A stretch of DNA of 64,000 bases from the NCBI RefSeq assembly GCF_009914755.1, contig NC_060928.1; one strand, 5' to 3'. This DNA is from the human T2T-CHM13v2.0 reference genome, Homo sapiens. Shown here in pieces: positions 1-33,582 of this stretch (position 1 is its first letter; each line of letters begins with the position of its first letter). The translations under genes and the position numbers were made by a program. The notes under the pieces are model-generated. The model saw only the letters and a program-made list of their open reading frames with translations. It was not told the origin of the DNA and searched no databases.

Positions 1-2313
1 TACATGATTTTTAAATTATAGTTTCTCTCAGAATTTTGATTAACATGATTGTATCAATCTTATGATATAGGAGGATGGTGACTTTCATTATTGTTTGCTT
101 AAGCAACAAGTCAAATATACCACAAGCCAGGAAATTAGAGAATTAATTGGAAATGAAACATAACCTAGATGGTAAAATTGGATACTAGAATATCAACATG
201 ATACTCAACGTAGAATATTTACTGTGAAATAAAGTGTACTAGAAGGGATCTTGGGAGTTTAATGAATTTTTCTACCAGTGGGCAATATCATTTATTTGTT
301 AATTTACTCAAATAAAGATCTGCGCAAAGCCAAAACCTATGAAGTAAAGCAGAATAAAAGAGTGCCATCCGAGGCTAAAAACATGTTTACTGTATTGCCA
401 CATGCATTCTTGGCAGTTTGGGGTCCTGTGTATATTTTGGAGGGGTAAAGAAGAATTAGTCAAAGGAAAGATTGTGGGAATAAATTTGTAGAATGGAGGG
501 TAGGTGAGGGATTAGAGATGAAGGAATCTGTTTATATGGATTTCAGCATGAAAGAGAGTTTAGAAAGAGAGTTCCTGAAGCTGCAATTGATGCAGTTATG
601 CTGGGCTGGAACAACTTGGGATAGGAAGTGTGGTGGGGAGGCAGAGTGGACTGAACTAAGCTGGCTGGAAGTGAAGTCTGGGATGAAGTTTACAGTGCGA
701 GGCAGAATCAGATGATGGAAGAACATGTGCTGTGTACACTGAGTTGTATTAATTGTTATATATATATTTTTAATCAATAGTGTACTAACTTGTGCTGCTG
801 AGTTTACTGAATTCATATTTTTAAAAACTCTAATTTGCCTAACTTTCAAAATAAAGCATCTAAAGCTTATTAAGCATATAGAACAGGAAACTTGGAAAGC
901 TGTTCTTGTGTTTGTGTTTAAATATTACCAAGTATATAATAGCTCACATTCCAGCAGACACAATACTGTGGCTTAGTCAGACCATGTTTTATATTACAAA
1001 TAGTTTTACGTAAAATGAATGTTCCAATCTATATCTCCAGAATGAAGACAGTCCTCTCTAAAAAGGGCTCCTTCATCCTGAAAGCTAGCTCAGAGGGTTT
1101 TTTGAGCTTTGTGTCCTGTTTGTCACTTCTTTGAGTATCTTAACCTGCAGTATAGTTACCCTTGCCACACTACAGTATCATAAAATGGGCATCTTGTATC
1201 TCTGTCTCAAGGTGATAATGGAGTTGAAATGTATATCAGGGAAAAGATCAGGATTTCATTGAAAAGATGGAATATACATTTTGCACTAATGTCTGAAAAA
1301 TCAACTTGCTCATAAGTTATTAAAGGACCACAGGTGCAAGCAGTGCAATTTTTGCAATTCCCTTTCCTGATATATTCTAGCAAGGTCATTTGCCCCTAAG
1401 CCTCAGAAGGTTAATTGGATCTCATAAGTGAATGCACCCAATCACTCATGATTTGGGAAATTTTAAAATTGTTGTTATTTAGGCATTAACATTGGAATAT
1501 CAAATTTGACTTTCTTTTTACTGAGTGGGATTGTTCTAAATTTGCTGGTTTTATGGCTCTTGTAATGAAAATTATTAAAAAAGAACACTAAAGGCCAACT
1601 TAAATAAAAACTACCTGTGTTGCTCAAATAAGTTTTTTACCTACATGTCTAGCAAATAGATTTATGGAAATTTAAATCTGCTTTGAGCTCTTTGGGACAA
1701 GCGTAATAGCCCTAAATCAAGTATTCAACATGCACCAGAGGTGGTCACTGTGTGGTAATTTTGTTGGTCAATGGAGTGACTCGTACTAACAAGGAAGAAA
1801 TAGGAAAAGCAGGGGGTCGAGAAGGCGAGGCTGGACACCACTGTGTGATTAAAGTAGAAAGTGTTTTTCTAATACAGTTCTGTGCCTTATTTGTCTGTCT
1901 TCCTTTTTTTTTTTTTTTTTTTTTTTTTACATCTTTTTGTTCTACAGTTTTGCTTTCTTTTTTCACCTGTTCTCTTTTGCTGAGATGGTAAGTTGCAGGC
2001 TCTATTCTGGGTTTAAGTTGATTGTACAAGTAGCAGAGATAATGACATTTTGAATTTGTTAAAAAGCTTTTATCTGAAAATTGACAGGGTATTTTTGTAA
2101 AACTAGCAGAAAACATGAGAGGGGCAATGAAAAAATATTTAGCCTTAAGACCCATAGATGTTTCTATTAGATCCATACAACTCAATAGAGAATGTCATGA
2201 AAATTCATCCATGAGTGAGAAAACTGGCTGCATGATATCTACCATGTAACTCCACATCAAGAGGGGCATCACCGTTTCATTCACTCTAGGCTCTCATTAA
2301 GTTCACTGCACTA

Positions 2314-2657
<344 letters not shown>

Positions 2658-2675
2658 GAAGAAAGGATGGTGAGC

Positions 2676-2786
2676 TTACCTAGATGACAGGTTGATAGGT
2701 GCAGCAAACCACCATGGCACATGTATACCTGTGTGACAAGCCTGCACGTTCAGCACATGTACCCCAGAACTTAAAGTTAAAAAAAA
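2676..2786 (+). mobile_element. L1PA 3' terminal fragment
   Basis: GGTTGATAGGTGCAGCAAACCACCATGGCACATGTATACC...CCCAGAACTTAAAG plus A-tail is the L1PA 3' UTR end. Confidence 0.9.
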
Positions 2787-3385
2787 TGCTCCATGTATCT
2801 TTAATGTATTTACCTTGACTAATTTTATAGACTATCTTATCTAAATACACTAGAACTATCAACTCTGTATTTGTTATAGTGTAGTTAATATGTAATATCT
2901 CATCCAAAAGTAAACATATTTAATATTTATTTTAAAACTCAACAAACATCATATATAATTTTACTTAATGGAGTAGCATATTATCTTCTCTAATGGCTTA
3001 TCGATCATGAAAAATTTATTTCAAAGAGGACCATTATACAGATATATCAGGAATTAGTGGTATCTTAGGTGGCATCTTCACAAGGAAGAGACATAAAGAT
3101 ATTTCTTATTATTGCAGCATATCTATACGTTAAAGCATGTTCTCTTAAGGGATCATATCTTTGGCAGAAGAAAAGATATAAAAGGATTCTAAAAGTGGCT
3201 ACGATATTCAATTCCACAGTACCAGAAGATTAATCTGCCACAATTTCTTTTGCTTTAATCACTATATGTCTTAGGTTTTCTCTTCTTTTTGGGTGCTCCC
3301 TTTCTTAATGGTAGTTGAATTCTCAGAGTTTAGCATATTGTACTTCTGGGGGAGTGGAGAGCTCTAGAGAAACTCAAATACTTCT

Positions 3386-4009
3386 TTTTACAAGATGTAT
3401 ATTTGTTTTATTCATAATTTGTCATGTTCTGGAATACAAAAGGTAATTGTAATGATGGCTGAATTTAACACAAAATTTTTAACTTCAACTTAAAACATGG
3501 ACTGATTAATCTCATTCAATGGCAATATTCAATGCTTAAAGGAACATAAACACGTACACAATTGTGCAGTTTTCATAAGGGTTTATTTTATAACTGGTGG
3601 ATAGCACATTTAACAGTTAAATACGTTTAAATAATGTATAGGTGACTACACAATTGCAGCACTGGTAACTAGATAGATAACCAATTCCACTAAAAACCAG
3701 CTAATGAGTAACTGTCTAAATATTTAAAAAACAGCTCTCGTTTGGGTCATCTTTCGTTTTGAACACCTTCTTAGGGGGGCAAAAGCCTGCTGGTCACAAT
3801 GGAAATATATTAAGGCTAAATCTTCTGATATCCATTCTCGGAGGCTACTTTCAGCTGGATTAAGTCTCTGCCTCTAGGGCAAGCACCAATTTGTGGCCTC
3901 CAGTATCAGTGCTCTTCCTGTCTACCAGAGCAGACAATGTAAGCTTTATACCAGGCCTCAGAATCTGAGGGTAGCCTGCTCCAGTCAATATAGAGTTGTT
4001 GACTTTTGC
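3386..4009 (-). pseudogene. VDAC2: Processed pseudogene fragment of VDAC2 (parent gene): last two coding exons, 3' UTR and poly(A) remnant
   Basis: Minus-strand translation [49 protein letters not shown] matches the VDAC2 C-terminus ([49 protein letters not shown]). Stop at 3862-3860 is followed by a VDAC2-like UTR (TAATCCAGCTGAAAG...GGATATCAGAAGATTT). No intron at the P-G exon junction. AATAAA at 3412-3407. 13-bp TSD CTCAAATACTTCT at 3373-3385 and 4175-4187. Confidence 0.93.
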
Positions 4010-4174
4010 ATTAAACAATTTATTGTAAAGGATGAACAGCCAGATAAAGTGATACATAGGGTGAGGTCTGGAAAAGTCCTGAGCATGGGGGCGTCTGTCC
4101 CTGTGGAGTTGGAGTGCGCCACTCTCCCAGTATGTGGATGTGTTCTTGTTCACCTCCCTGGAAGCCCTGAACTG
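4010..4174 (-). mobile_element. MER21 LTR segment forming the 5' part of the VDAC2 retrocopy
   Basis: Minus strand reads GAACACATCCAC...CCAACTCCACAGGGACAGA...CCAGACCTCACCCTATGTATC...CTGGCTGTTCATCCTTTACAATAAA, typical of MER21; it lies inside the same TSD. Confidence 0.85.
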
Positions 4175-4845
4175 CTCAAATACTTCTAATAAGAAGCGTT
4201 ACACAGTAGTTTGGGGAGAGATCATTGGATCACCATTGGAAGGTGATCTCCCATTTAGGAGATGAACTTTCATACTGGAAAGGATTGGCCTTTCAGATAT
4301 TTGATAGAGAGCTACATGAAATATTTATGATGTTCCTGAGACCTAGACCATCGGGGTAGTCACACTATTGAGGATAGGAACACTTCACACAGACTTCTAG
4401 ATGTGAAACTTTGTATAACTTTGAGGAGGAGGCCCAGAATTTAAAATACCAAGATTTTATGAGTACACAGGCCCTGGGAATTGTAGGTACTCAAGATAGT
4501 TCTCTGAGGGAAAAGTCCACCGTGGCATTCATTCTCAAGGAGTCAGATCCCACTAAAAATAGAAACATATCAAACCCCAAAAATCTCAAATGAATCTCAG
4601 TCTTAAGGGAAGAGGATTGTGTAGGCAGATTTTCCCAGTGCGGGGAGAAACAGTACATAGAAGCTTTTGAGTCCAGAGCAGTTTTTATTTTTGTTTTTGA
4701 AATCCATATGTGACAGGTACTGAGAAAGAGAAATATTTTGGTCTTTGCAAATTTAGGAGACTTTACAATTAAAAATCATAAGATAACAGTCAGAGATAGC
4801 TCATGAGGAAATCTGCTACAAATATTCAATGTACAAAATTCCTAA

Positions 4846-4908
4846 ACATTAGGCATTCACAGATATTGGAGAGTTCATATAGGAGAGAAACCTTTTAAAT
4901 GTGATGAA
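4846..4908 (+). pseudogene. Possible degenerate C2H2 zinc-finger linker remnant
   Basis: Translates ...HRYWRVHIGEKPFKCDE, resembling HTGEKPF/YxC; single unit with no intact finger. Confidence 0.35.
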
Positions 4909-5489
4909 ACTTCATCTAGGACTAAAAGACACATTTGTGCACGTTGGAGCATGTTGCCCCTTCCTCTGAGCAGACATAGCCTTGCACCAGGGCTTCCGGC
5001 TTGGTGAGCAGAGGATCACCTCATACTTTCCCCTTGTTCAGTGAATTGCTAGTGCAATCCTATCAGTCGCCCTCATTGTACTGAGTTTCCTGGCAGTTAG
5101 CAGGCCTGATGACATTCTACCTGGCTTTGTTAGTATTTTTTGAAAGCCTACTGCATGTATCTTTTGGATTCGTATGCAATATACTAAAGTGATAGATTGG
5201 GGTGATTATTTTCACTTTGGAAGTTTATTTGCTTTACAAAAGAGTATAGGATGATTTATTTAAAAAATCATTTCTTCTATGATTTAATTTATGAAAGATT
5301 AAGAATGCATCTAATAGTTAAAATAAATTTCACTCTTAAAATTTTTTGTTGTAAGTCAAGCAAAAATTATACAGATGGCGAGTCTTTGCCACATAATTAT
5401 CTCCCCTAATCAGAATGATTACAATATGGAGTGTCTACTCTTTTTTTCTTAGTTTAAGGAAGTTTCAGACATACTCACACACAAATATT

Positions 5490-5850
5490 TATGGTAGATT
5501 GTATTATTGTTCTAAATTATTTGCTCACTTCTTACCCCTGAGAAGACAATGCATTCTTATGCTGTTGATTTCAGGCTTGGCCTTGGGACCTGCTTAAACC
5601 AAGAGATATGCCACATCCGAGCAGTTCTTTTCCTTGTGGCCCCTGCCATGAGAGCAGCGTGTACAAGGTGGATGCTGCTCCATTAGCGTGGATCCTGGGA
5701 TGAGAAGACTCAGGGAGCAGGCTCTGCCAACCCACAGTCTACAGCAGAGCCACAGCCAGCAGTAGTCCTCATTCAACAGGAGGGGGAAAAAACTGCTCGT
5801 CATCCTTAGCTCTGAGATTTGGGGGTTGTTATCACAGAAGATACTGTCTC
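5490..5850 (+). mobile_element. MLT1 (MLT1I-like) MaLR LTR
   Basis: TGCCATGAGA...GCTGCTCC...GAGAAGAC...CTGAGATTTGGGGGTTGTTATC motifs. Confidence 0.7.
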
Positions 5851-5929
5851 ATAGAAGTTTTTAATATGACTGCTACTACAACAACTATTGCTATAATGTT
5901 TACAGCAATCATTGCTACTTTACGTTCCA

Positions 5930-6110
5930 ACAGTATTATTGCTTGCAAGGGGCTATCAAATAGATGATCTTGTTGGAAACTCACAGCTACAAGGGCAGGT
6001 GAGGAAGCTGAAGTAATGAGTAGGAGAAGTTAATGAATTATCCCAAGGTCAAAGTGCTAGAAACTAGAAGGAGAGGATTTGAACTCTGATTTTCTTATTT
6101 CAAGTTGTTG
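5930..6110 (-). mobile_element. MIR fragment
   Basis: GAGGAAGCTGAAG...GTTAATGAATTATCCCAAGGTCA...GGATTTGAACTC is the reverse MIR core. Confidence 0.65.
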
Positions 6111-25650: not shown

Positions 25651-26418
25651 CCCTTGCACACTGTTAGTGGAAATATAGATTGGTGTAGCCACTATAGAAA
25701 ACAGTATGAAGGTGCCTTAACATTAAAAACAAAACTATCATATGATCTGGCAATCCCACTTCTGAGTCTATATTCAAAGGAAATAAAATCAATATGTCAA
25801 AAAGATATCTACACCCGCATATTCATGGCAGCATTATTCACAATAGCCAAGATATAGAAGCAATTAAATGTCCATCCAGAGATGAATGGATACAGAAAAG
25901 ACCATACAAACACACACAGGAATATTAATTCAACCTTAAAAAAGAAGAAAGTCCTGCCATTTATGACAACGTGGATGAACCTGGAGGACATTATACTAAG
26001 TGAGGGAGGCCACGCACAGAAAAACAAATACTAAACTACTTATGTGATGAATCTAAAAGAGTCAAACTAAAAGAAGCAGAGAGTGGAATAATGGTTTCCA
26101 GGGGCTGGGATGAGGCAGAAACAGGAGGTACAAAGTTTTAGTTATACAAGATACTAGAGATCTACTGTAACAATAATGTATTGTATACTTGAAAATATGC
26201 TAAGAAGATAGATCCTATATTAAGCATTCTTATCATATACACACAAAATTATAATAAATATGAAGGCAAGAATAAATTTTTGGAGGTGATGGATAGGTTT
26301 ATGGCAGATTGTGGTAATGGTTTCATGGGTCTATACTTATCTCCAAACTCATTGTGTACATTAAATATGTACAGCTTTGTGTATGGTAATAATACCTCAA
26401 TAAAGTGGTTAGAATAAA
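25651..26418 (+). mobile_element. L1MA10/L1MB1-like 3' end
   Basis: GCAATCCCACTTCTG, GGATGAACCTGGAGGACATTAT, TACCTCAATAAAG. Confidence 0.88.
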
Positions 26419-26931
26419 GAATCCCACAAAAGGCAATCCTCCACAGGTGTAAATAAGTTGAGTGTGTTCAGTGTGCCCCTTCTGTTGAGTATGTTTAGGG
26501 ATTCTTGCTTCCTTGATGAACCTCACTTTTGCCATACACCTCCCATGGAACTGAGGAGGATATTTTGAGAATTTTCCAGTACTTCAGGCTGTCTGACAGA
26601 CTCTCAGTAGATGTGCAAACTTTCCCAGGTGCTGTGAACTGTACATTCTGTTTATAGTCTGAAATTGAAGTACATTATTTGGTTATATCAATGCCTTGGT
26701 GAACACAATAATCTATGCGCAAGGACAAATTATAACTGTAAACATTTGTTACACATGTAACATACAGAGAGGTGAAATCAACTTGCACACTTGAATAATC
26801 ACATATTATGATAATTGTAAGAGAAGTAAAGGTAATTTAAAAAGTATATTTGGCTTTTGTTCAAGTTTTAAATATTAAAAAACCAACCACTAGACCATTA
26901 TATTTTCAGTGTAATATCAGATCAAGGAGGC

Positions 26932-27292
26932 TGATAATGGCGTGGCTGTGTCCCCACCCAAATTTCATGTCGAATTGTAATTTCCACAGTTCCCACCTTT
27001 CATGGGAGAAACCCAGTGGGAGGTGATGAATTATGGGGGCAGGTCTTTCCTGCACTGTTCTCGTGATAGTGAATAAATCTCATGAGATCAGATGGTTTTA
27101 AAAAATGAGTGTTTCCCTGCACAAGCTCTCACTTTGCCAGCTGCCATCCATGTAAGATGTGACTTGCTCCTCCTTGCCTTCCACCATGATTGTGAGGCCT
27201 CCCCAGCCATGTGAAACTGTATGTCCATTAAACCTAATTTTCTTCGAGTCTCGTAGATGTCTTTGTCAGCACTGTAAAAATGGACTAATACA
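26932..27292 (+). mobile_element. THE1 (THE1A-like) solo LTR
   Basis: GGCTGTGTCCCCACCCAAAT...TTTCCCTGCACAAGCTCTC...GGACTAATACA; perfect 5-bp TSD GAGGC. Confidence 0.93.
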
Positions 27293-27651
27293 GAGGCTGT
27301 TGTCTACTTAACTCGTTCAGAAAAATGCAGCTTTTGATAAAATTTTGAACTAAAAATTGGAGATTGGGCTACTTCAATTATTTTTCAAAAACACCACTAA
27401 TACATGATTGGGTGGTTGGAGATGGTCTGAGAGATGGATTTTTCCTGACATAGAAAATCAGCTAATATTCTCTTGAATCATACCTATGTAGGTGAAGCCA
27501 GATTTCTCGTTTAAATAATCTTTGGTTAGTGTGAGGTGCAGCCCATTTCTGAAAGGTTAGGAGTCAGCTTTTGTTAGCTGAGCTTAGTTCATTGATTCCA
27601 TACTTTCATTTAGAAGTTCCTTTTCTTCTCAATTTGTATTTTAGGAATGAG

Positions 27652-27871
27652 AAGACCATCCTGGATAACACAGAGAGACCCTGTATCTACCAAAAAAAAA
27701 AAAAAAAAAAAAGTATTAGCCAGGCATGGTGGTGCATGCCTGCAGTCTCAGCTACTCTGGAGGCTGAGGAGGAAGGATTGCTTAAGCCCAGGAATTCAAG
27801 GCTGCAGTAAACCATGATCTCACCACTGCATTTACGCCTGGGCAACAGAGTAAGACCTTGCCTTTAAAAAA
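27652..27871 (+). mobile_element. AluJ, 5'-truncated, expanded middle A-tract
   Basis: GGATTGCTTAAGCCCAGGAATTCAAGGCTGCAGT is a J-type right arm; flanks AGGAATG(A/T)GAA. Confidence 0.9.
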
Positions 27872-28882
27872 AGGAATGTGAAAACATTATTAATATTTAC
27901 TTATCTTAGCAAGGTTTTCTATCCTAATGCAGAAGTCAATATTATGTTAGCCTCTCTTCAATTACAAAAGAACTATTAAATAAGCCAAAATTTTCTGAAA
28001 GTCAATCTCCACTTAGTAGTTTTCTTAAAGAATTGATTAATGGCTGATATAATAAACCATTTTTCTTTTGGCTGGAAAAATACTGTTAAACCATTCAATT
28101 TCATACCAATAAAGCAGTTTTTAGACAAATGTTATAATTGAACTGGATAACTATTAATTTGATTCAGACTTGCTAGGATCAGCCAAGCAACCAGTATTTG
28201 CTAGTCTGTTACAATAAAGGCTTAACATTAAATTTTCTGTTCCTGTTGTCACCAGGTTATAATTTCCTCAGAGATCAGTCCTTGAAGAATTAAATAAAAG
28301 CCATTTAGCAATTAGTCCATGAAGGTGTTAAAATTGTCTTATAGTTCATTAGTTACACTTTGATGTTGCCAGCTTCTACTAAATAAATCAAGGTTTAGGC
28401 AGTAGGGAAGGAAGAATGTTTTAATGGAGACTTTATTGCAACTGGTAATTACAAAAGATGAAGAAAAGTTTAAGCTTATCTAATAATGGTAATAACATAA
28501 AGTCTGATATTCAAATGTCATTTAAGCACTTTTCATTAAGAGATGATATGGGAAATAGGAAGGAATACATTGACCCATGGAAAATTAATGATGCGGCATG
28601 CACACAGACACATCCCCACTTCTGATAAATGACACTCATCACCAAATACAGTGCACATATGTAGAGACATCATTATTAAGTTAGAGATTAGATACAGCTT
28701 TTTTTTTTTGGAGTATGAGTACCTTAATAATAGGCCTCACATTTATAATTCTAAAATCTAGAATTTACAGCTAGCCCTTTCATTTGAAAAATAGTCAGAA
28801 AGCTTAACCTTATTTAGGGTCACTGTAGGTCAAGCTGATTTCTGTAGAATTCAAAATAAGGGGCTGCAAATATGGCTCTTAC

Positions 28883-28990
28883 CTTGGGAATGGTGAGGAT
28901 GACTGCCAGCAGTCCCCATGGCTTTTTCCTCTCACTTTACTTTGAGAGGATTGGGGGAGGTAGGAATCACGGGAGGCTCTGGAGTCTTAG
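28883..28990 (-). other. Candidate 108-nt non-coding exon
   Basis: Acceptor TTTGTCTGTCTTTCCACTCTCCAG| and donor CAAG|GTAAGA; stops in all three frames. Confidence 0.3.
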
Positions 28991-31074
28991 CTGGAGAGTG
29001 GAAAGACAGACAAATCAAGTCATAGAACTTCTAAACCCTGCTGTCTCTTGCACTTGTCCTATGCTTCTCGTCCAAGTTGTATGGACTGATTCAATAGCAC
29101 CTCAAATCATCTTGTGTATGAGAATGGGAAGATTTGGGAGGAGCATAAACTGGGCTTAGCAATAGTTAGTAGTGCTTACTATTGGGAAGTCATTAAGAAT
29201 AGTGCCTTAGCTATTCAGAGAATTGACAGCTTACCTGCTTTCTTGAAATTGTCTTTGAATTTCTATTTTCAGAAAGAGGAGAAAACAAATATGCCTGCAC
29301 TATGTATGCCTGCACTATGACAGGACTATTTTTTTTTAAGAAACACCAGATACATAAACTTTGCAGTGGAGGATAAACCATGTTCAAAAAGAAACAAACT
29401 CAGAAAGGAAGAGGGAAGGGTCATATGTATAGAATATGAAAGTGGATTTAATCACATGTATATAAAGAATTGTCCAAATGGCTAGCCAGATAAATACGTC
29501 TCATATTTTACAGTTCTGGTGTGATGAAAAGATGTTCTTTTACTACCTTGATAATCACACTTATGACACATAAGAAAAAAAATACAAAGTCAACCAAAAA
29601 TAAATTCCTAGTTTTCAAGTCTGATGGTGAACAGAAATAGCCAGCCTTTGATAAGGTTTCTGATTTAATTATATACTTCCATATATCATAGAAAATATTT
29701 TGGTTATCATTGTTCTTCACGGAATTAAAAAGCATTACTAGATGTCTAAAAAGTTGCTACTTTAAAGAACTCTATAAGAACATTTGGGAAAAAGGTTTAG
29801 AAACCCAGGCAACTTTACAAATAGATAACTAATAATAATTATCCTAGAATCATGGAAATAAAAGATACTATAAGATCCATCCTTTTGTTTTTGTCCCACC
29901 TTTGTCTTCCCAGAACATTTTGTATTCTGTCCTATCAGGTAGTGTTCTTTCCAGGGTAATACATTGCGGTTAAAAAATGTAATAAAATATATATAAAAGC
30001 ATTTTATATAGATAAATAGGAAGCAATTCACTCTTTAAAGAAAACTTGTAAAACGAGTTGCTAATGCCAAAAGGAGTAGAAAAGCTGTGATTTGTATTAA
30101 CTCTGTTTGCAGGTTGAGACAGGGCTGGAGTGAGCGTGGAGCATGTTCTTCAACTGCAATTGCCTGTCTTAGGTAACAGGATAATTCTCTTTCCTTAGTG
30201 ACTGCCTCCATCACATTCACGTGAGCAGCCAGTACATACTGGGGTGAAGGTGGGGGTGAAATAGGGGGATCCTTAGGGTGTCTTCCTTCCAACCCATCTC
30301 AGTTGAGCATATTTGTTGTAAAAATCAAAGAAACTCTTCAGTTTTGCAATATAATTCTTTGCCATTTCTGATCATAGTGGAGATTCTTTAGGAAATCTTA
30401 ATGTCTCCGAAGCTTTCAAATAGAGAAAACAGAGCTCATATGTGTCCTTCACACTGTGGAAACAGGCTGTTTGTTGAACAGTCTTTTATGAGACTTGTCT
30501 TATTTTGTAATGTGACATTAGTCATTCTTGACCAATCATCTTGATGTCTCCATTAGGTTCTGAATGACCGGACCCTTCTAGGCACTGTTGTGTATCCAAA
30601 GTCTTAATCAGTAGTGTAAGTAATTTCTAAATTAGCAGGCCTTAGAAAACATTAATGTACCAAGCCTTACCTCAGTTTAGGTTTACAAGATATTTTACAT
30701 TATAAAGCTCATTAACATTACTAATACTTATCTATTTATAACAAAATACTCCATATTACTCACTCTCACTCTACAGACCATATCCACAAGGATGGACATC
30801 TGATATCCAATTTGTTACTGTAAACATTTGTCGAACATTTTATTTGACCCCATGTTAAGCCCAGGGATGTAAAGAAAACTAAAACAATAAAGAAGGCAGA
30901 CATCTATAGGAAAACAAAATAACCAAAGTAAAATAAAGCCCAATTGACTTTAAATATAGGGGTAAGGGGTTCCAGTCATATCATTAGACCTTGAAGTCAA
31001 TATTATATTTTTAACATAATAGTTTCTGAGGCTATCAGGAAAACTATAATGTTTAAATGCACATTCTGTTTAAG

Positions 31075-31172
31075 AAGGCATGGAACACAGGTATATACCT
31101 ATGGAAACATTCATCAAGCTATATACGTAAGATCTGTGTACTTTTGGTATGTAAATTATAACAATTAAAAGA
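31075..31172 (+). mobile_element. Old L1M 3' end fragment
   Basis: CATTCATCAAGCTATATACGTAAGATCTGTGTACTTT..TATGTAAATTATA. Confidence 0.6.
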
Positions 31173-32160
31173 AAGAACATATGAAAGTATAGATTATATC
31201 CAGCATCACTAAAAAAAGAGAGGCTCCTTTGGCCAGTCTTTTACCTATTTCACTCACTTATTTGGAATATTTGTTCTGTACAGCTCAGGATTTTTGTGTT
31301 CTAATGTGTAGTGTGCATTAGTATAATATTAAATTCTTTATCTCATCATTACTTTTGGTGAATAATTTTACTTCTTATACAGGATTTTTAAGTACCTGCT
31401 TATTTTTCTAATGCTTATAATATGCATACAATATAATTTTCATACTATATTAGTATCACATTCTTCAGTCTCATGTGAGAGACTAAATACTATAATTATG
31501 AAAAGAACTTCATGTTGTGTCATGATTCGGGGATTTTCTAGAACACTGGGTTAGGCCAGATACATTTTCCACAGTGGTCACAGATCTAGAAGAAATATTC
31601 TCATGCCCTGAAGCCCTGGCAGCACCCCAGAACCCCAGACTGTGGGGTTACAGGTCTTTATTCTGAACATTATGAAACTTCCTCCTAAACAATAGATAAA
31701 TTGATTTTGTGGTCAGAAAGCCTGTGCTTAGATATAAGACAGGCTACAAATGTGAATTTATGCAGTTTGGAGAAGGCATAGAGATAATGTCAACTTTAAT
31801 TCCTGTTTTTTCCCAAACACAGAGAATAGGCCAAAGGTCATGTGTGGAAATTAAAAAAAAATGGAAAACAGATGTTAGGAAGCTCACTATAGGAATGGAA
31901 ACACAAGCAGCACTGAAAATTATTTAAAAGCAAAGCAAAACAAACCTTTGCTTAAAAAAAATCTAGAAAGTGATTATCTTATGAAGGTTCTATTTTCATA
32001 ATGATTTGTTTAACACAGTTTGACTTTTTACTATTTTTCTGAAGTTTAATTTTATATAATCTTTATATATATAAAAGTTTAATTTTATATAATCTCTTCC
32101 TTACATCTAGAGACAGAATTTGGGAGCAAAACAAGATTTTAGAATCTGCCCATTATAAAT

Positions 32161-32271
32161 TCCTAAAAAGATGATGCCTGGAGAATAGCCTCTTCTCAAA
32201 AACCAAAATACAACCATCATCCTAAAAAGATGATGTCTGGAGAATAGCCTCTTCTCAAGAACCAAAATACA
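32161..32271. repeat. 52-bp direct repeat with 7-bp spacer
   Basis: 32161-32212 vs 32220-32271, two mismatches. Confidence 0.95.
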
Positions 32272-32807
32272 GTCACTTTATCCCTCAAATAATCAAACTT
32301 TAACTTAAAAAATGTTTGTCTTTCAGTTGACAGTGGTGTTACTTTTCAAAATGCTTATTATTCTTAAATTTTCATTCCATTAAGACACATTAATACATTT
32401 CCTTGACATTAGTAAGAGCCATGCCAATTTATTGTGGTGAAAATAGATAGGTATAATTTCATGTTAGATTATAAAATACACCCTAATGACTCTCAAATGG
32501 ATTGTCAATTCTTTTGTGCTTAAAGAAGATCTATGTATTTGACATGTTTTGACTTTTTATATATGATCTTCAGCCAAATAAAAGAAGATACTGCAAGATC
32601 AATGAAATGTATGGATGATGATCTGAAACTTTATAAACAAACACACAGTGGACCTCTAGACTCTATCTTGAAACTTTTCTCTGTGTTGTGTTTTAAAAAT
32701 CCAGATAAGATTCATAAAAATGAAAGAAATGTAATATGATTAAGAAGGAATTTCTAAAATTTTAATAAAACCAAAATTAAGAGGAATTATTAAAAATACA
32801 TATTCCT

Positions 32808-33582
32808 ATTGCTGTTGTAATCTTTGTGTAGGAATGCAGAATAAGCTTACTCAATGTTTTCTTAAATTAAATAGTTATTAATCTTCCAGATATCACCATT
32901 TGTTGGAATTCAAGAGTTATGAATGGCCCTCACCATACCAATGCTTTCTGACTGAACTCCTCTCTATGCTAAATGCAAGAGACCCAATAGTTAGGCAGGT
33001 ATAACTTCACCCCTATTCAGCCTGAAGAAGTTACAGAAGACTGATCGTCGTCCCTCTGCAACCCCTAGGATTAAGGGTTCTCTTATAAAAGGGAGGGGGG
33101 AAATGTCAGAGGCATTAGAACCAGAGCAACTCCATTTTGAATAGAGGCTGAGGAAAATAAGGCTGAGACCTGCTGGGCTGCATTTTCAGGAGGCTAAGGC
33201 ATCCTAAGTCACAGGATGAAATAGGAGGTCCGCACAAGATACAGGTCATAAAGACCTTGCTGATAAAACAAGTTGCAGTAAAGAGGCCAGCTAAAACCTA
33301 CCCAAACCAAGATGGCAATGAGAGTGTCCTCTGGTTGCCCTTACTACTACACTCCCACCAGTACCATGACAATTTGCAAATGCCATGGCAATGTCAGGAA
33401 GTTACCTATATGGTTCAAAAATGGGAGGCACAAATAATCCACCCCTGTTTAGCATATAATCAAGAAATAGCCATAAAAATGGGCAACCAGCAGCCCTTGG
33501 GGCTGCTCTGCCTATGGAGTAGCCATTTTTTTATTCCTTTACTTTCCTAATAAACTTGCTTTGGCTTTAAAAAATAAAAATG
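32808..33582 (+). mobile_element. Processed retrocopy of MER41 ERV RNA: internal 3' end, polypurine tract, MER41A U3-R and poly(A)
   Basis: Polypurine tract AAAAGGGAGGGGGGAAA at 33087-33103; LTR starts TGTCAGAGGC at 33104; ends 14 nt after AATAAA (33549-33554) in an A tail; TSD AAAAATACATATT(C/T)CT at 32792-32807 and 33583-33598. Confidence 0.9.

What the first reader, a model, noticed from the sequence alone, without database searches (positions are those of the whole stretch)
3373..4187. Fossil of an LTR-initiated, spliced VDAC2 isoform: MER21 segment joined to the last two VDAC2 exons inside one TSD
Seen in the sequence: one perfect 13-bp TSD (CTCAAATACTTCT; minus-strand target TT/AGAA, L1-endonuclease-like) encloses MER21 (4174-4010), VDAC2 (4009-3390) and an A tail, all in the same orientation, so this is a single retrotransposed RNA. 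Recalled knowledge: VDAC genes have a 58-nt penultimate exon starting at the Ala of AKVNNS and ending in the first base of the Gly of PG. Here VDAC2 begins exactly at that Ala codon, and 4009-3952 is 58 nt. The MER21 consensus as I recall it reads AATAAA-9 nt-GTAAGT; here AATAAA (4024-4019) plus 9 nt is followed directly by the VDAC2 exon, so the join coincides with both a splice donor and an exon start. The 5' end also appears to fall shortly downstream of the TATA-like CATAAAA of the LTR consensus. Inference: the template was a germline transcript that started in a MER21 LTR, probably in the preceding VDAC2 intron, and spliced to the terminal exons, rather than a random RT template switch. 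MER21 LTRs are known alternative promoters (CYP19A1 placental exon I.1).
Basis: partly seen in the sequence, partly recalled or inferred. Interest (0 to 1): 0.85.

Follow-up and report, generated by a model that had tools for sequence, protein, structure and literature searches.

The report
Fossil retrocopy of LTR-started VDAC2 transcript
This is a dead, L1-made copy of an ancient RNA that joined a retroviral LTR to the last two exons of the VDAC2 gene, and together with a sister copy on chromosome 17 it preserves a record of LTR-driven germline transcription tens of millions of years old.

Summary
A perfect 13-bp target-site duplication (3373-3385 / 4175-4187) encloses, on the minus strand, 165 nt of an LTR, the 58-nt penultimate VDAC2 exon, the last exon with 3'UTR, and a 4-nt A tail.

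The 7,245-nt VDAC2 intron before that exon contains a sense LTR of the same type. It has a GT exactly where the fossil switches from LTR to exon.

New here: the same intron holds a second sense LTR of a sister type. A second, independent retrocopy on chr17 joins that type, at the same LTR coordinate, to the same exon start. It has its own 13-nt TSD, an 18-A run, and a different poly(A) site.

Two fossils matching two intronic LTRs rule out random RT template switching.

Both 5' ends lie 15-38 nt downstream of the LTRs' conserved TATA-like motif. This favours LTR-initiated transcription (about 0.75) over 5' truncation of a longer RNA.

No private mutations link either fossil to its proposed source LTR. 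The link rests on position and LTR type.

The "MER21" name is only circumstantially supported. Verdict: a real and tidy new member of a known kind, of moderate interest.

The parts
4175..4187 (-). Upstream copy (in insert orientation) of the 13-nt target-site duplication, AGAAGTATTTGAG on the minus strand. The L1-type nick site TTCT/AATAAG lies on the + strand at 4187/4188.
   Evidence: perfect 13-nt repeat.
4010..4174 (-). It starts 15-17 nt downstream of the position of the LTR's TATA-like motif. It ends at the LTR coordinate that is followed by GT in genomic copies.
   Evidence: 32 genomic copies at 76-84%; 32 of 32 F2 copies hit only 4006-4178 in the window; it falls in the F2 clade with split support 1.0.
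4019..4024 (-). The LTR's AATAAA hexamer, 9 nt before the join. The source RNA read through this poly(A) signal.
   Evidence: copy alignment.
3952..4009 (-). VDAC2 penultimate exon (58 nt), starting at the exact first base of the exon (GCAAAAGTC...).
   Evidence: 84% identity to C10 locus positions 33129-33198, where the gene intron ends TTATTTTAG; exon map; four normal retrocopies show the same exon start.
3860..3951 (-). Coding part of the last VDAC2 exon, joined without the intron. Stop codon TAA at 3862-3860.
   Evidence: 49 aa plus stop; Porin_3; VDAC2 residues 246-293.
3390..3859 (-). VDAC2 3'UTR, with the poly(A) signal AATAAA at 3412-3407.
   Evidence: 81% identity over 570 columns to the gene's last exon. 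K2P 0.161 to the present gene.
3386..3389 (-). Remnant of the poly(A) tail (4 A).
3373..3385 (-). Downstream copy of the 13-nt target-site duplication.

Best explanation
Window 3386-4174 (minus strand) is an L1-made processed retrocopy of a chimeric, spliced RNA from the VDAC2 gene.

In a mammalian ancestor, an LTR sat in sense orientation in the 7.2-kb intron before the penultimate VDAC2 exon. It still sits there today (C10:76100409-76100737). Transcription started in that LTR a little downstream of its TATA-like motif and ran through the LTR's own AATAAA. The RNA was spliced from an LTR-borne GT donor 9 nt past that hexamer to the normal acceptor of the penultimate exon. It then continued through the last exon and was polyadenylated at the VDAC2 site. 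L1 reverse transcriptase copied this RNA into chr4 in the germline or early embryo, leaving a 13-bp TSD and an A tail.

A second LTR of a sister type in the same intron (C10:76097290-76097561) did the same and left an independent retrocopy on chr17.

Shown: the retrocopy structure, both exact junctions, and the presence, orientation and GT of both intronic LTRs.

Inferred: that those LTRs are the actual sources, and that transcription began inside them.

The copies are decayed and no function is implied.
For: 1. The structure is that of an L1-type retrocopy.
- It has a perfect 13-nt TSD.
- The last intron is absent, and AATAAA and an A tail are present.
- The nick site is TTCT/AA.

2. The exon side of the join is exact.
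- The gene reads TTATTTTAG|GCAAAAGTC at locus position 33137/33138.
- Four other retrocopies (chr1, chr2, chr12, chr21) join the preceding exon to the same base.

3. The LTR side of the join is exact.
- Both intronic LTRs read CTGGTAAAT followed by GT. GT follows that block in 27 of 51 genomic copies, from 53 fetched, 2 of which lack the block.

4. Position argues for these LTRs as sources.
- In the 40-kb VDAC2 locus, only two segments are hit by many LTR copies (47 and 48 matches).
- Both are on the + strand, like the gene, and both lie in the one relevant intron.
- No other copy is found in the remaining roughly 33 kb of the locus or in the rest of the 64-kb window.

5. The LTR types match one to one.
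- A tree of 57 rows splits into two clades with support 1.0.
- The chr4 fossil and intronic LTR#2 fall in one clade; the chr17 fossil and intronic LTR#1 fall in the other.

6. The chr17 copy is independent.
- It has its own TSD, AAAAGCTTCTGCA / AAAAGCTTTTGCA (12/13).
- It has an 18-A run and uses a poly(A) site about 180 nt further downstream.
- It carries a later Alu insertion, and its flanks share only Alu-like repeats with the chr4 flanks.

7. Both 5' ends are close to the TATA-like motif.
- Distances are measured from the T of the conserved CATAAAAA-like motif.
- The chr4 copy starts at about +15 to +17. The chr17 copy starts at +35 to +38, or about +22 to +25 if the 13 nt of target/LTR microsimilarity are counted.

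8. The ages are compatible. K2P to the present gene is 0.161 for chr4 and 0.139 for chr17. This is similar to four other old VDAC2 retrocopies (0.128-0.172).
Against: No sequence-specific link ties either fossil to its proposed source.
- chr4 versus LTR#2 shares 0 rare variants and is 76.6% identical, mid-range among 33 comparisons.
- chr17 versus LTR#1 shares 2 rare variants and is 63.7% identical, the lowest of 22 comparisons.
- Neither pair is sister in the tree.
- Several indels differ. LTR#2 has an 18-nt insertion and blocks that the chr4 copy lacks. LTR#1 lacks 9 nt that the chr17 copy has and carries a 12-nt block that it lacks.

The 5' ends do not fit a simple TATA-directed start.
- The chr4 5' end lies only 15-17 nt from the TATA-like motif, closer than the roughly 25-30 nt expected for such a start.
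- The chr17 5' junction shows significant microsimilarity between target and LTR: a mean of 8.1 of 13 positions, reached by 1 of 2181 control 13-mers. As I recall, this is the signature of 5'-truncated L1-type insertions, so the RNA may have extended further upstream.

Other weaknesses:
- The present LTR#2 donor (GTGTTA) is weak.
- No RNA evidence could be consulted.
Confidence: 0.75

Rival explanations
1. The RNA was the same spliced LTR-VDAC2 chimera, but it did not start in the LTR. A longer transcript came from the VDAC2 promoter, with part of the intron retained or with the LTR exonized. It used the LTR-borne GT as a donor, and both retrocopies were 5'-truncated during L1 reverse transcription.
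For: The chr17 5' junction shows target/LTR microsimilarity. As I recall, this is typical of truncated insertions. The chr4 5' end is nearer the TATA-like motif (15-17 nt) than a TATA-directed start should be. 5' truncation is common in L1-mediated copies (established knowledge).
Against: Two independent copies from two different LTRs both end within about 25 nt of each other in LTR coordinates, just downstream of the conserved TATA-like motif. With random truncation over an RNA of 0.8 kb or more, this is unlikely: a few percent per copy (my estimate). Neither copy contains any U3 or intron sequence upstream of that point.
Confidence: 0.2
2. L1 reverse transcriptase switched templates from a VDAC2 mRNA to an unrelated LTR-containing RNA. 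The LTR part would then come from another locus.
For: Such chimeras exist (recalled literature). No private mutations tie the fossil LTR parts to the intronic LTRs.
Against: The switch would have to fall on the first base of an exon and on an LTR coordinate followed by GT. It would have to do so twice independently, and with the two LTR types that happen to sit in sense in the intron just upstream. Published family sizes are in the thousands: MER21C 5,501 and LTR33 9,260 in the table seen in PMC4419796. At that scale, a sense copy in a given 7.2-kb intron is expected about 0.01 times per type (my estimate).
Confidence: 0.02
3. Either retroposition was mediated by an LTR retrotransposon (host mRNA captured between LTR sequences inside a virus-like particle), or a truncated VDAC2 retrocopy landed by chance next to an older LTR fragment.
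For: LTR-mediated retrocopies with microsimilarity at fusion points are described (PMC5131818, abstract seen).
Against: The 13-nt TSD directly flanks the 165-nt LTR piece on one side and the A tail on the other. LTR homology stops at the TSD, and there is no LTR downstream of the copy. The chr17 copy has the same architecture with its own TSD and an 18-A run. These are L1-type hallmarks.
Confidence: 0.02

Closest known systems
MER21A LTRs as alternative promoters of CYP19A1 and HSD17B1 (placenta)
   Same: In both cases an LTR of the same broad family, in sense orientation upstream of host exons, supplies a first exon spliced to a host acceptor. Passages in PMC10113160 and PMC4419796 state the promoter role. 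One LTR homologous to the types studied here lies in gene orientation about 126-128 kb upstream of the last P450 exons at C15:49.02 Mb. It is matched by 21 F2 and 13 F1 copies.
   Different: Here the LTRs are intronic and drive only the last two exons (49 codons), so no useful protein is expected. The evidence is a pair of DNA fossils, not RNA. The CYP19A1-side LTR has lost the AATAAA/donor segment used in the VDAC2 fossils, so it must use a different donor.
Processed pseudogenes as fossils of ancestral splice variants
   Same: A retrocopy preserves an isoform that is not the canonical mRNA, allowing exon junctions of an ancient transcript to be read from DNA.
   Different: The preserved isoform here has a transposon-derived first exon. 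It is recorded twice, from two different LTRs in one intron.
Chimeric retrocopies made by L1 RT template switching (U6-L1 and similar; recalled literature)
   Same: Two unrelated sequences sit in one orientation inside a single TSD with one poly(A) tail.
   Different: In template-switch chimeras the join is not expected to coincide with splice sites. Here the join sits on an exon's first base and on an LTR position followed by GT. The partner sequence lies in the parent gene's own intron.
LTR-mediated retroposition (Tan et al. 2016, PMC5131818; abstract seen)
   Same: It also produces a retrocopy fused to LTR sequence, with microsimilarity at a junction (seen at the chr17 5' junction).
   Different: Those retrocopies sit between discontinuous LTR-element sequences. 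Here there is a single 127-165-nt LTR piece at the 5' end only, an A tail, and 13-nt TSDs typical of L1.
PIPSL-type retrogenes from read-through or fusion transcripts (recalled)
   Same: A spliced chimeric RNA was retrocopied by L1.
   Different: In PIPSL the partners are two host genes and the product became a gene. Here the partner is an intronic LTR and the product is a dead fragment.

Membership tests
L1-mediated processed retrocopy | Target-site duplication of about 7-20 bp directly flanking the insert | tested here: met
   Perfect 13 nt at 3373-3385 and 4175-4187. The chr17 sister has a 12/13 TSD.
L1-mediated processed retrocopy | Introns absent; 3' end at a poly(A) signal followed by an A tail | tested here: met
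   The penultimate and last exons are contiguous although about 1.2 kb apart in the gene. AATAAA lies at 3412-3407. The A tail is only 4 nt here, versus an 18-A run on chr17.
L1-mediated processed retrocopy | T-rich/AA endonuclease target | tested here: met
   The + strand reads ACTTCT/AATAAG at 4187/4188.
Retrocopy of a cis-spliced LTR-host chimeric transcript | The LTR of that type is present in sense orientation in the parent gene upstream of the joined exon | tested here: met
   LTR#2 at C10:76100409-76100737 (+) and LTR#1 at C10:76097290-76097561 (+). Both lie in the intron 25893-33137 of the fetched locus. Type match has split support 1.0.
Retrocopy of a cis-spliced LTR-host chimeric transcript | The join coincides with a GT donor on the LTR side and an AG acceptor/exon start on the gene side | tested here: met
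   Both intronic LTRs have GT immediately after the last LTR base kept in the fossils. The gene intron ends in AG before GCAAAAGTC.
Retrocopy of a cis-spliced LTR-host chimeric transcript | The fossil LTR part shares private variants with the proposed source LTR | tested here: not met
   0 rare shared variants for chr4/LTR#2 and 2 for chr17/LTR#1, both within the range of unrelated copies. There is no sister grouping. This is expected if retroposition soon followed LTR insertion, but it leaves the source inferred.
LTR-initiated (promoter) transcript | The 5' end of the RNA lies at the LTR's transcription start | tested here: inconclusive
   The 5' ends lie 15-17 nt (chr4) and 22-38 nt (chr17) downstream of the conserved TATA-like motif. 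The true start site of this LTR family could not be obtained; the literature search gave nothing usable.
LTR-initiated (promoter) transcript | RNA, CAGE or reporter evidence of promoter activity of these two LTRs | not testable with these tools
   No expression data are available here.
   A single homologous LTR lies at C15:49146241-49146428 (-). It is in gene orientation upstream of P450 exons at C15:49018613-49020307, within the 80 kb fetched. That this gene is CYP19A1, and that its placental promoter lies there, rests on recalled map positions. Papers seen state only that MER21A is its promoter.
RT template-switch chimera | Join independent of splice signals; partner RNA from an unrelated locus | tested here: not met
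   The join sits on splice signals in two independent copies, and partners of both types lie in the parent intron.

The most novel reading that the evidence does not exclude
Two different LTRs in one VDAC2 intron were both strong germline or early-embryo promoters in an early placental mammal. This LTR family carries a ready-made first exon: a start site, its own AATAAA, and a GT donor 9 nt later that overrides that poly(A) signal. If so, retrocopies of the form 'LTR R-region | host exon' would be a minable fossil record. The start sites, splice choices and target genes of LTR-driven germline transcription of roughly 60-100 million years ago could then be read directly from DNA.
Probability: 0.45. 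Interest if true: 0.65.

Novelty: new member of a known kind. Interest (0 to 1): 0.5.

Why it matters
LTR-initiated chimeric transcripts are usually studied as RNA in living cells. Whether old, now-silent LTR families behaved the same way when they were young can normally only be guessed. Here two independent DNA fossils record, base for base, the same event type from two LTRs in one intron: an LTR segment beginning just downstream of the TATA-like motif, read-through of the LTR's own poly(A) signal, use of an LTR-borne donor, and splicing into a host gene.

This is direct evidence that these LTRs supplied a working splice donor in heritable cells deep in mammalian history, and it points to promoter activity as well. 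It also suggests a simple genome-wide search for LTR-exon retrocopies that could turn this anecdote into a data set.

The locus itself has no sign of function. Neither copy is among the four named VDAC2 pseudogenes listed in PMC10286422.

Tried and rejected
1. Rare-shared-variant counts and a tree, meant to tie each fossil to its intronic LTR, were uninformative. They gave no specific affinity, but also no better candidate.

2. A regular-expression census of the donor mis-anchored in several copies. It was replaced by an alignment-column census.

3. I first placed the chr17 5' boundary at about L005:1406-1410, where LTR homology begins. The poly(A)/TSD analysis showed that 1407-1419 is target-site duplication that merely resembles the LTR. 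The first unambiguous insert base is 1420.

4. I first took the chr17 3' end to be the canonical poly(A) site. It actually runs on to a downstream AATAAG site.

5. Fixing the chr17 boundaries through the surrounding MIR-like repeat was not done, because it would have needed a consensus from memory.

7. Literature searches found no description of this fossil:
- VDAC2 + MER21 gave 1 irrelevant paper.
- Retrocopies + LTR + chimeric transcripts.
- MER21 + splice donor gave 3 papers, seen only as a listing.
- Processed pseudogene + alternative first exon + LTR.

8. A search for the CYP19 exon I.1 start site gave nothing usable.

9. Rfam found nothing in 2000-6000.

10. LTR#1 and LTR#2 as the two LTRs of one provirus: considered and judged unlikely. 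They fall in different clades with support 1.0, though they are 71% alike over 339 columns. The sequence between them was not examined for internal retroviral genes.
Full report
**1. What is in the window**

Read on the minus strand, the stretch is bounded by two perfect copies of a 13-nt repeat. On the + strand this is CTCAAATACTTCT at 3373-3385 and 4175-4187. Between the copies lie four parts:
- (i) 4174-4010: 165 nt of a dispersed repeat.
- (ii) 4009-3952: 58 nt.
- (iii) 3951-3390: the rest of a coding end plus a 3'UTR, with AATAAA at 3412-3407.
- (iv) 3389-3386: four A residues.

The frame from 4009 gives AKVNNS...LEAET and a stop. It matches the last strands of Pfam Porin_3 (E 6.2e-7, 29.5 bits against a cut-off of 28.4). 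Its best match among solved structures is VDAC2 residues 246-293 of 294 (E 5.6e-16), ahead of VDAC1 (5.9e-14).

A search of the window's own genome with the 789-nt insert scored 40 of 341 candidates. The matches were the insert itself, the VDAC2 gene on contig 10, six other VDAC2-like loci, and 32 loci matching only the first roughly 145 nt at 76-84% identity. Part (i) is therefore a member of a repeat family, and parts (ii)-(iv) are VDAC2.

**2. The exon side of the join**

I fetched 40 kb around VDAC2 (C10:76070001-76110000) and mapped its exons with a nearly identical full-length retrocopy from chr2.
- The penultimate exon is locus positions 33138-33195 (58 nt). It is preceded by the intron end TTATTTTAG.
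- The last exon starts at about 34391.
- The intron before the penultimate exon runs from 25893 to 33137 (7,245 nt).

The window's VDAC2 part begins on the first base of that exon and lacks the intron between the last two exons. Four other VDAC2 retrocopies (chr1, chr2, chr12, chr21) carry the preceding exon joined to the same base (...TTCCATTTCT|GCAAAAGTC in the chr2 copy; the other three are close variants), which confirms the boundary.

**3.

BLAST of the insert against the locus found the repeat part in sense orientation inside that very intron. Insert positions 8-115 match 30500-30607 (76%), and 117-143 match 30626-30652 (85%). That element, called LTR#2 here, reads ...AACTGGTAAAT followed by GTGTTAG.

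I aligned 32 genomic copies of this type (F2) and 21 of a sister type (F1). Natural copies typically read an AATAAA-like hexamer, a 9-nt block such as CTGGTAAAT, then GTAAGT or GTG; L022 is an example. Of the 53 copies, 51 retain the block. In those 51 the next two bases are:
- GT in 27.
- AT in 8.
- TA followed by GTAAGT in 3.
- Other in 13.

The window's LTR part ends exactly at the end of that block. The block itself is decayed to TTGTTTAAT, 6/9 to CTGGTAAAT. On its own it is equally similar (6/9) to the VDAC2 intron end, so it is not decisive alone.

**4. A second fossil**

One of the VDAC2-like loci, on chr17 (locus L005), does not carry the preceding exon. It reads ...TATCCTTTATCATAAACCAGTAAAT|GCAAAAGTCACC. 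This is an LTR ending at the same coordinate, joined to the same exon base. Here the 9-nt block is well preserved (CCAGTAAAT) and unlike the intron end (3/9).

Its LTR part belongs to the sister type F1: 39 other loci matched at 75-82%, from 40 scored of 730 candidates. The VDAC2 intron also contains a sense F1-type LTR, called LTR#1, at locus positions 27290-27561. It reads ...AAAACTGGTAAAT followed by GTAAAT.

A scan with all 53 copies shows that these two segments are the only ones in the 40-kb locus hit by many copies (47 and 48 matches). The window contains no copy other than 4006-4178. The many single hits in that scan are Alu pieces carried in a few copies' flanks.

A FastTree of 57 rows on 205 columns splits into two clades with support 1.0:
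- F1: 21 copies, the chr17 fossil and LTR#1.
- F2: 32 copies, the chr4 fossil and LTR#2.

Three F1 rows (L018, L026, L062) are near-duplicates of one another, so they count as about one independent copy.

**5. Independence of the two fossils**

- The chr17 copy has its own target-site duplication: AAAAGCTTCTGCA at L005 1407-1419 and AAAAGCTTTTGCA at 2815-2827.
- It has an 18-A run (2801-2818).
- It runs about 180 nt past the poly(A) site used by the chr4 copy, to an AATAAG site of the gene.
- It carries a later Alu insertion.
- The chr4 and chr17 flanks share only Alu-like repeats.

A search with the VDAC2 part alone scored all 9 candidates. They were the two gene exons, chr4, chr17, the four ordinary copies, and one 165-nt 3'UTR fragment on chr1. 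In this genome, then, 2 of the 6 retrocopies that reach the penultimate exon are LTR chimeras.

**6. What this excludes**

Template switching by reverse transcriptase would have to hit an exon's first base and an LTR position followed by GT. It would have to do so twice, using the two LTR types that happen to lie in sense orientation in the preceding intron.

Published family sizes are in the thousands: MER21C 5,501, MER21A 1,921 and LTR33 9,260 in the table of PMC4419796 (passages seen). At that scale, a sense copy in a given 7.2-kb intron is expected about 0.01 times per type. This is my estimate, and it assumes sizes of that order for these two types.

LTR-mediated retroposition (PMC5131818, abstract seen) and insertion next to an older LTR are both excluded. 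The TSDs hug the short LTR piece and the A tail, and LTR homology stops at the TSD.

**7. What remains inferred**

(a) The source. Neither fossil shares private variants with its intronic LTR.
- chr4/LTR#2: 0 rare shared variants and 76.6% identity, mid-range of 33 comparisons.
- chr17/LTR#1: 2 rare shared variants and 63.7% identity, the lowest of 22.
- Several indels differ.

This is what one expects if retroposition followed LTR insertion closely and both sides then decayed. K2P to the present gene is 0.161 and 0.139, and LTR copies are about 75% alike pairwise. It is nonetheless an absence of positive evidence.

(b) The start of transcription. Distances below are measured from the T of the conserved CATAAAAA-like motif.
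- The chr4 copy begins at about +15 to +17.
- The first unambiguous chr17 base is at +35 to +38.
- The 13 nt of chr17 TSD match the LTR sequence just upstream at a mean of 8.1 of 13 positions over 20 copies. Only 1 of 2181 control 13-mers does as well. The cDNA therefore probably reached about +22 to +25 and was joined by microsimilarity.

Two independent 5' ends within about 25 nt of each other, right after the TATA-like motif and with no U3 or intron sequence, argue for initiation in the LTR. Two observations argue for caution: the short chr4 distance, and the microsimilarity, which as I recall is a mark of truncated insertions. I put LTR initiation at about 0.75 and a truncated longer RNA at about 0.2.

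**8. The family name**

No repeat library was available. As a proxy I located P450 exons at C15:49018613-49020307 on the minus strand. I take this gene to be CYP19A1 from recalled map position. I then fetched 80 kb further upstream. A single LTR homologous to both types lies at C15:49146241-49146428, in gene orientation. It is matched by 21 F2 and 13 F1 copies. Papers state that MER21A acts as a CYP19A1 promoter (passages in PMC10113160 and PMC4419796). That the promoter lies about 100 kb or more upstream is recalled. This supports "MER21-like" but does not prove it.

PMC4419796 lists MER21A as primate-specific and MER21C as eutherian. Given the divergences, an older subfamily seems more likely here.

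**9. Age and function**

K2P values of 0.14-0.16 are in the range of four other old VDAC2 retrocopies (0.128-0.172). They are far from the young chr2 copy (0.002). With commonly assumed neutral rates this suggests very roughly 60-100 million years; this is an inference.

The copy sits on the strand opposite to LINC01091, in an intron of it (hub annotation). It has no Rfam match and encodes at most the last 49 VDAC2 residues. A stop-free frame of 112 codons (3860-4198) with an in-frame ATG at 4057-4055 exists, but it owes its continuity to private deletions in the LTR part.

**10. Comparison with the literature and verdict**

The kind is known: LTR-started chimeric transcripts, and retrocopies that preserve non-canonical isoforms. 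The case appears not to be described.
- Four searches found nothing.
- The four named VDAC2 pseudogenes in PMC10286422 Table 1 are on chr21, chr12, chr1 and chr2, not chr4 or chr17.
- Supplements of these papers were not consulted.

This is a new member of a known kind, of moderate interest.

Noticed in passing
L005 1420-2814 (G000 C17:64983418-64984812): A second LTR-VDAC2 chimeric retrocopy. It has a sister-type LTR piece (127 nt) and the same LTR|exon junction. It uses a downstream AATAAG poly(A) site of VDAC2, has an 18-A run and a 12/13 TSD, and carries a later Alu insertion at 2245-2713.
   Followed up: yes
L005 1407-1419 and 2815-2827: The chr17 target-site duplication resembles the LTR sequence that would have preceded the insert start: a mean of 8.1 of 13 positions over 20 copies, reached by 1 of 2181 control 13-mers. 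This points to a microsimilarity-guided 5' junction.
   Followed up: yes
L004 (G000 C2:65215510-65215948 and upstream): A very young, full-length-looking VDAC2 retrocopy. Its exon segments are 98-100% identical to the gene (K2P 0.002 over 433 sites). It is not at the chr2 position given for VDAC2P4 in PMC10286422.
   Followed up: partly
L009 (G000 C1:160079124-160079289): An isolated 165-nt fragment of the VDAC2 3'UTR only (K2P 0.155). Its origin and boundaries were not examined.
   Followed up: no
window 3860-4198 (minus strand): A stop-free frame of 112 codons runs from the flank through the LTR part into the VDAC2 C-terminus. It has an in-frame ATG at 4057-4055. This is probably chance, created by private deletions in the LTR part.
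   Followed up: partly
G000 C15:49146001-49146650 (minus strand; loci L071): The LTR upstream of the P450 gene taken to be CYP19A1 lacks the segment that holds the AATAAA and the GT donor used in the VDAC2 fossils. It passes directly into the downstream LTR region.
   Followed up: partly
L018, L026, L062 (G000 C1:142.96 Mb, 121.11 Mb, 148.92 Mb): Three copies of the sister-type LTR on chr1 are nearly identical to one another. This suggests they lie in segmental duplications around the chr1 centromere.
   Followed up: no
G000 C10:76097290-76100737 (loci L015, L016): The two related LTRs lie in the same orientation 3.2 kb apart in one VDAC2 intron, with two Alu elements between them. Whether any internal retroviral sequence lies between them was not examined.
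   Followed up: no
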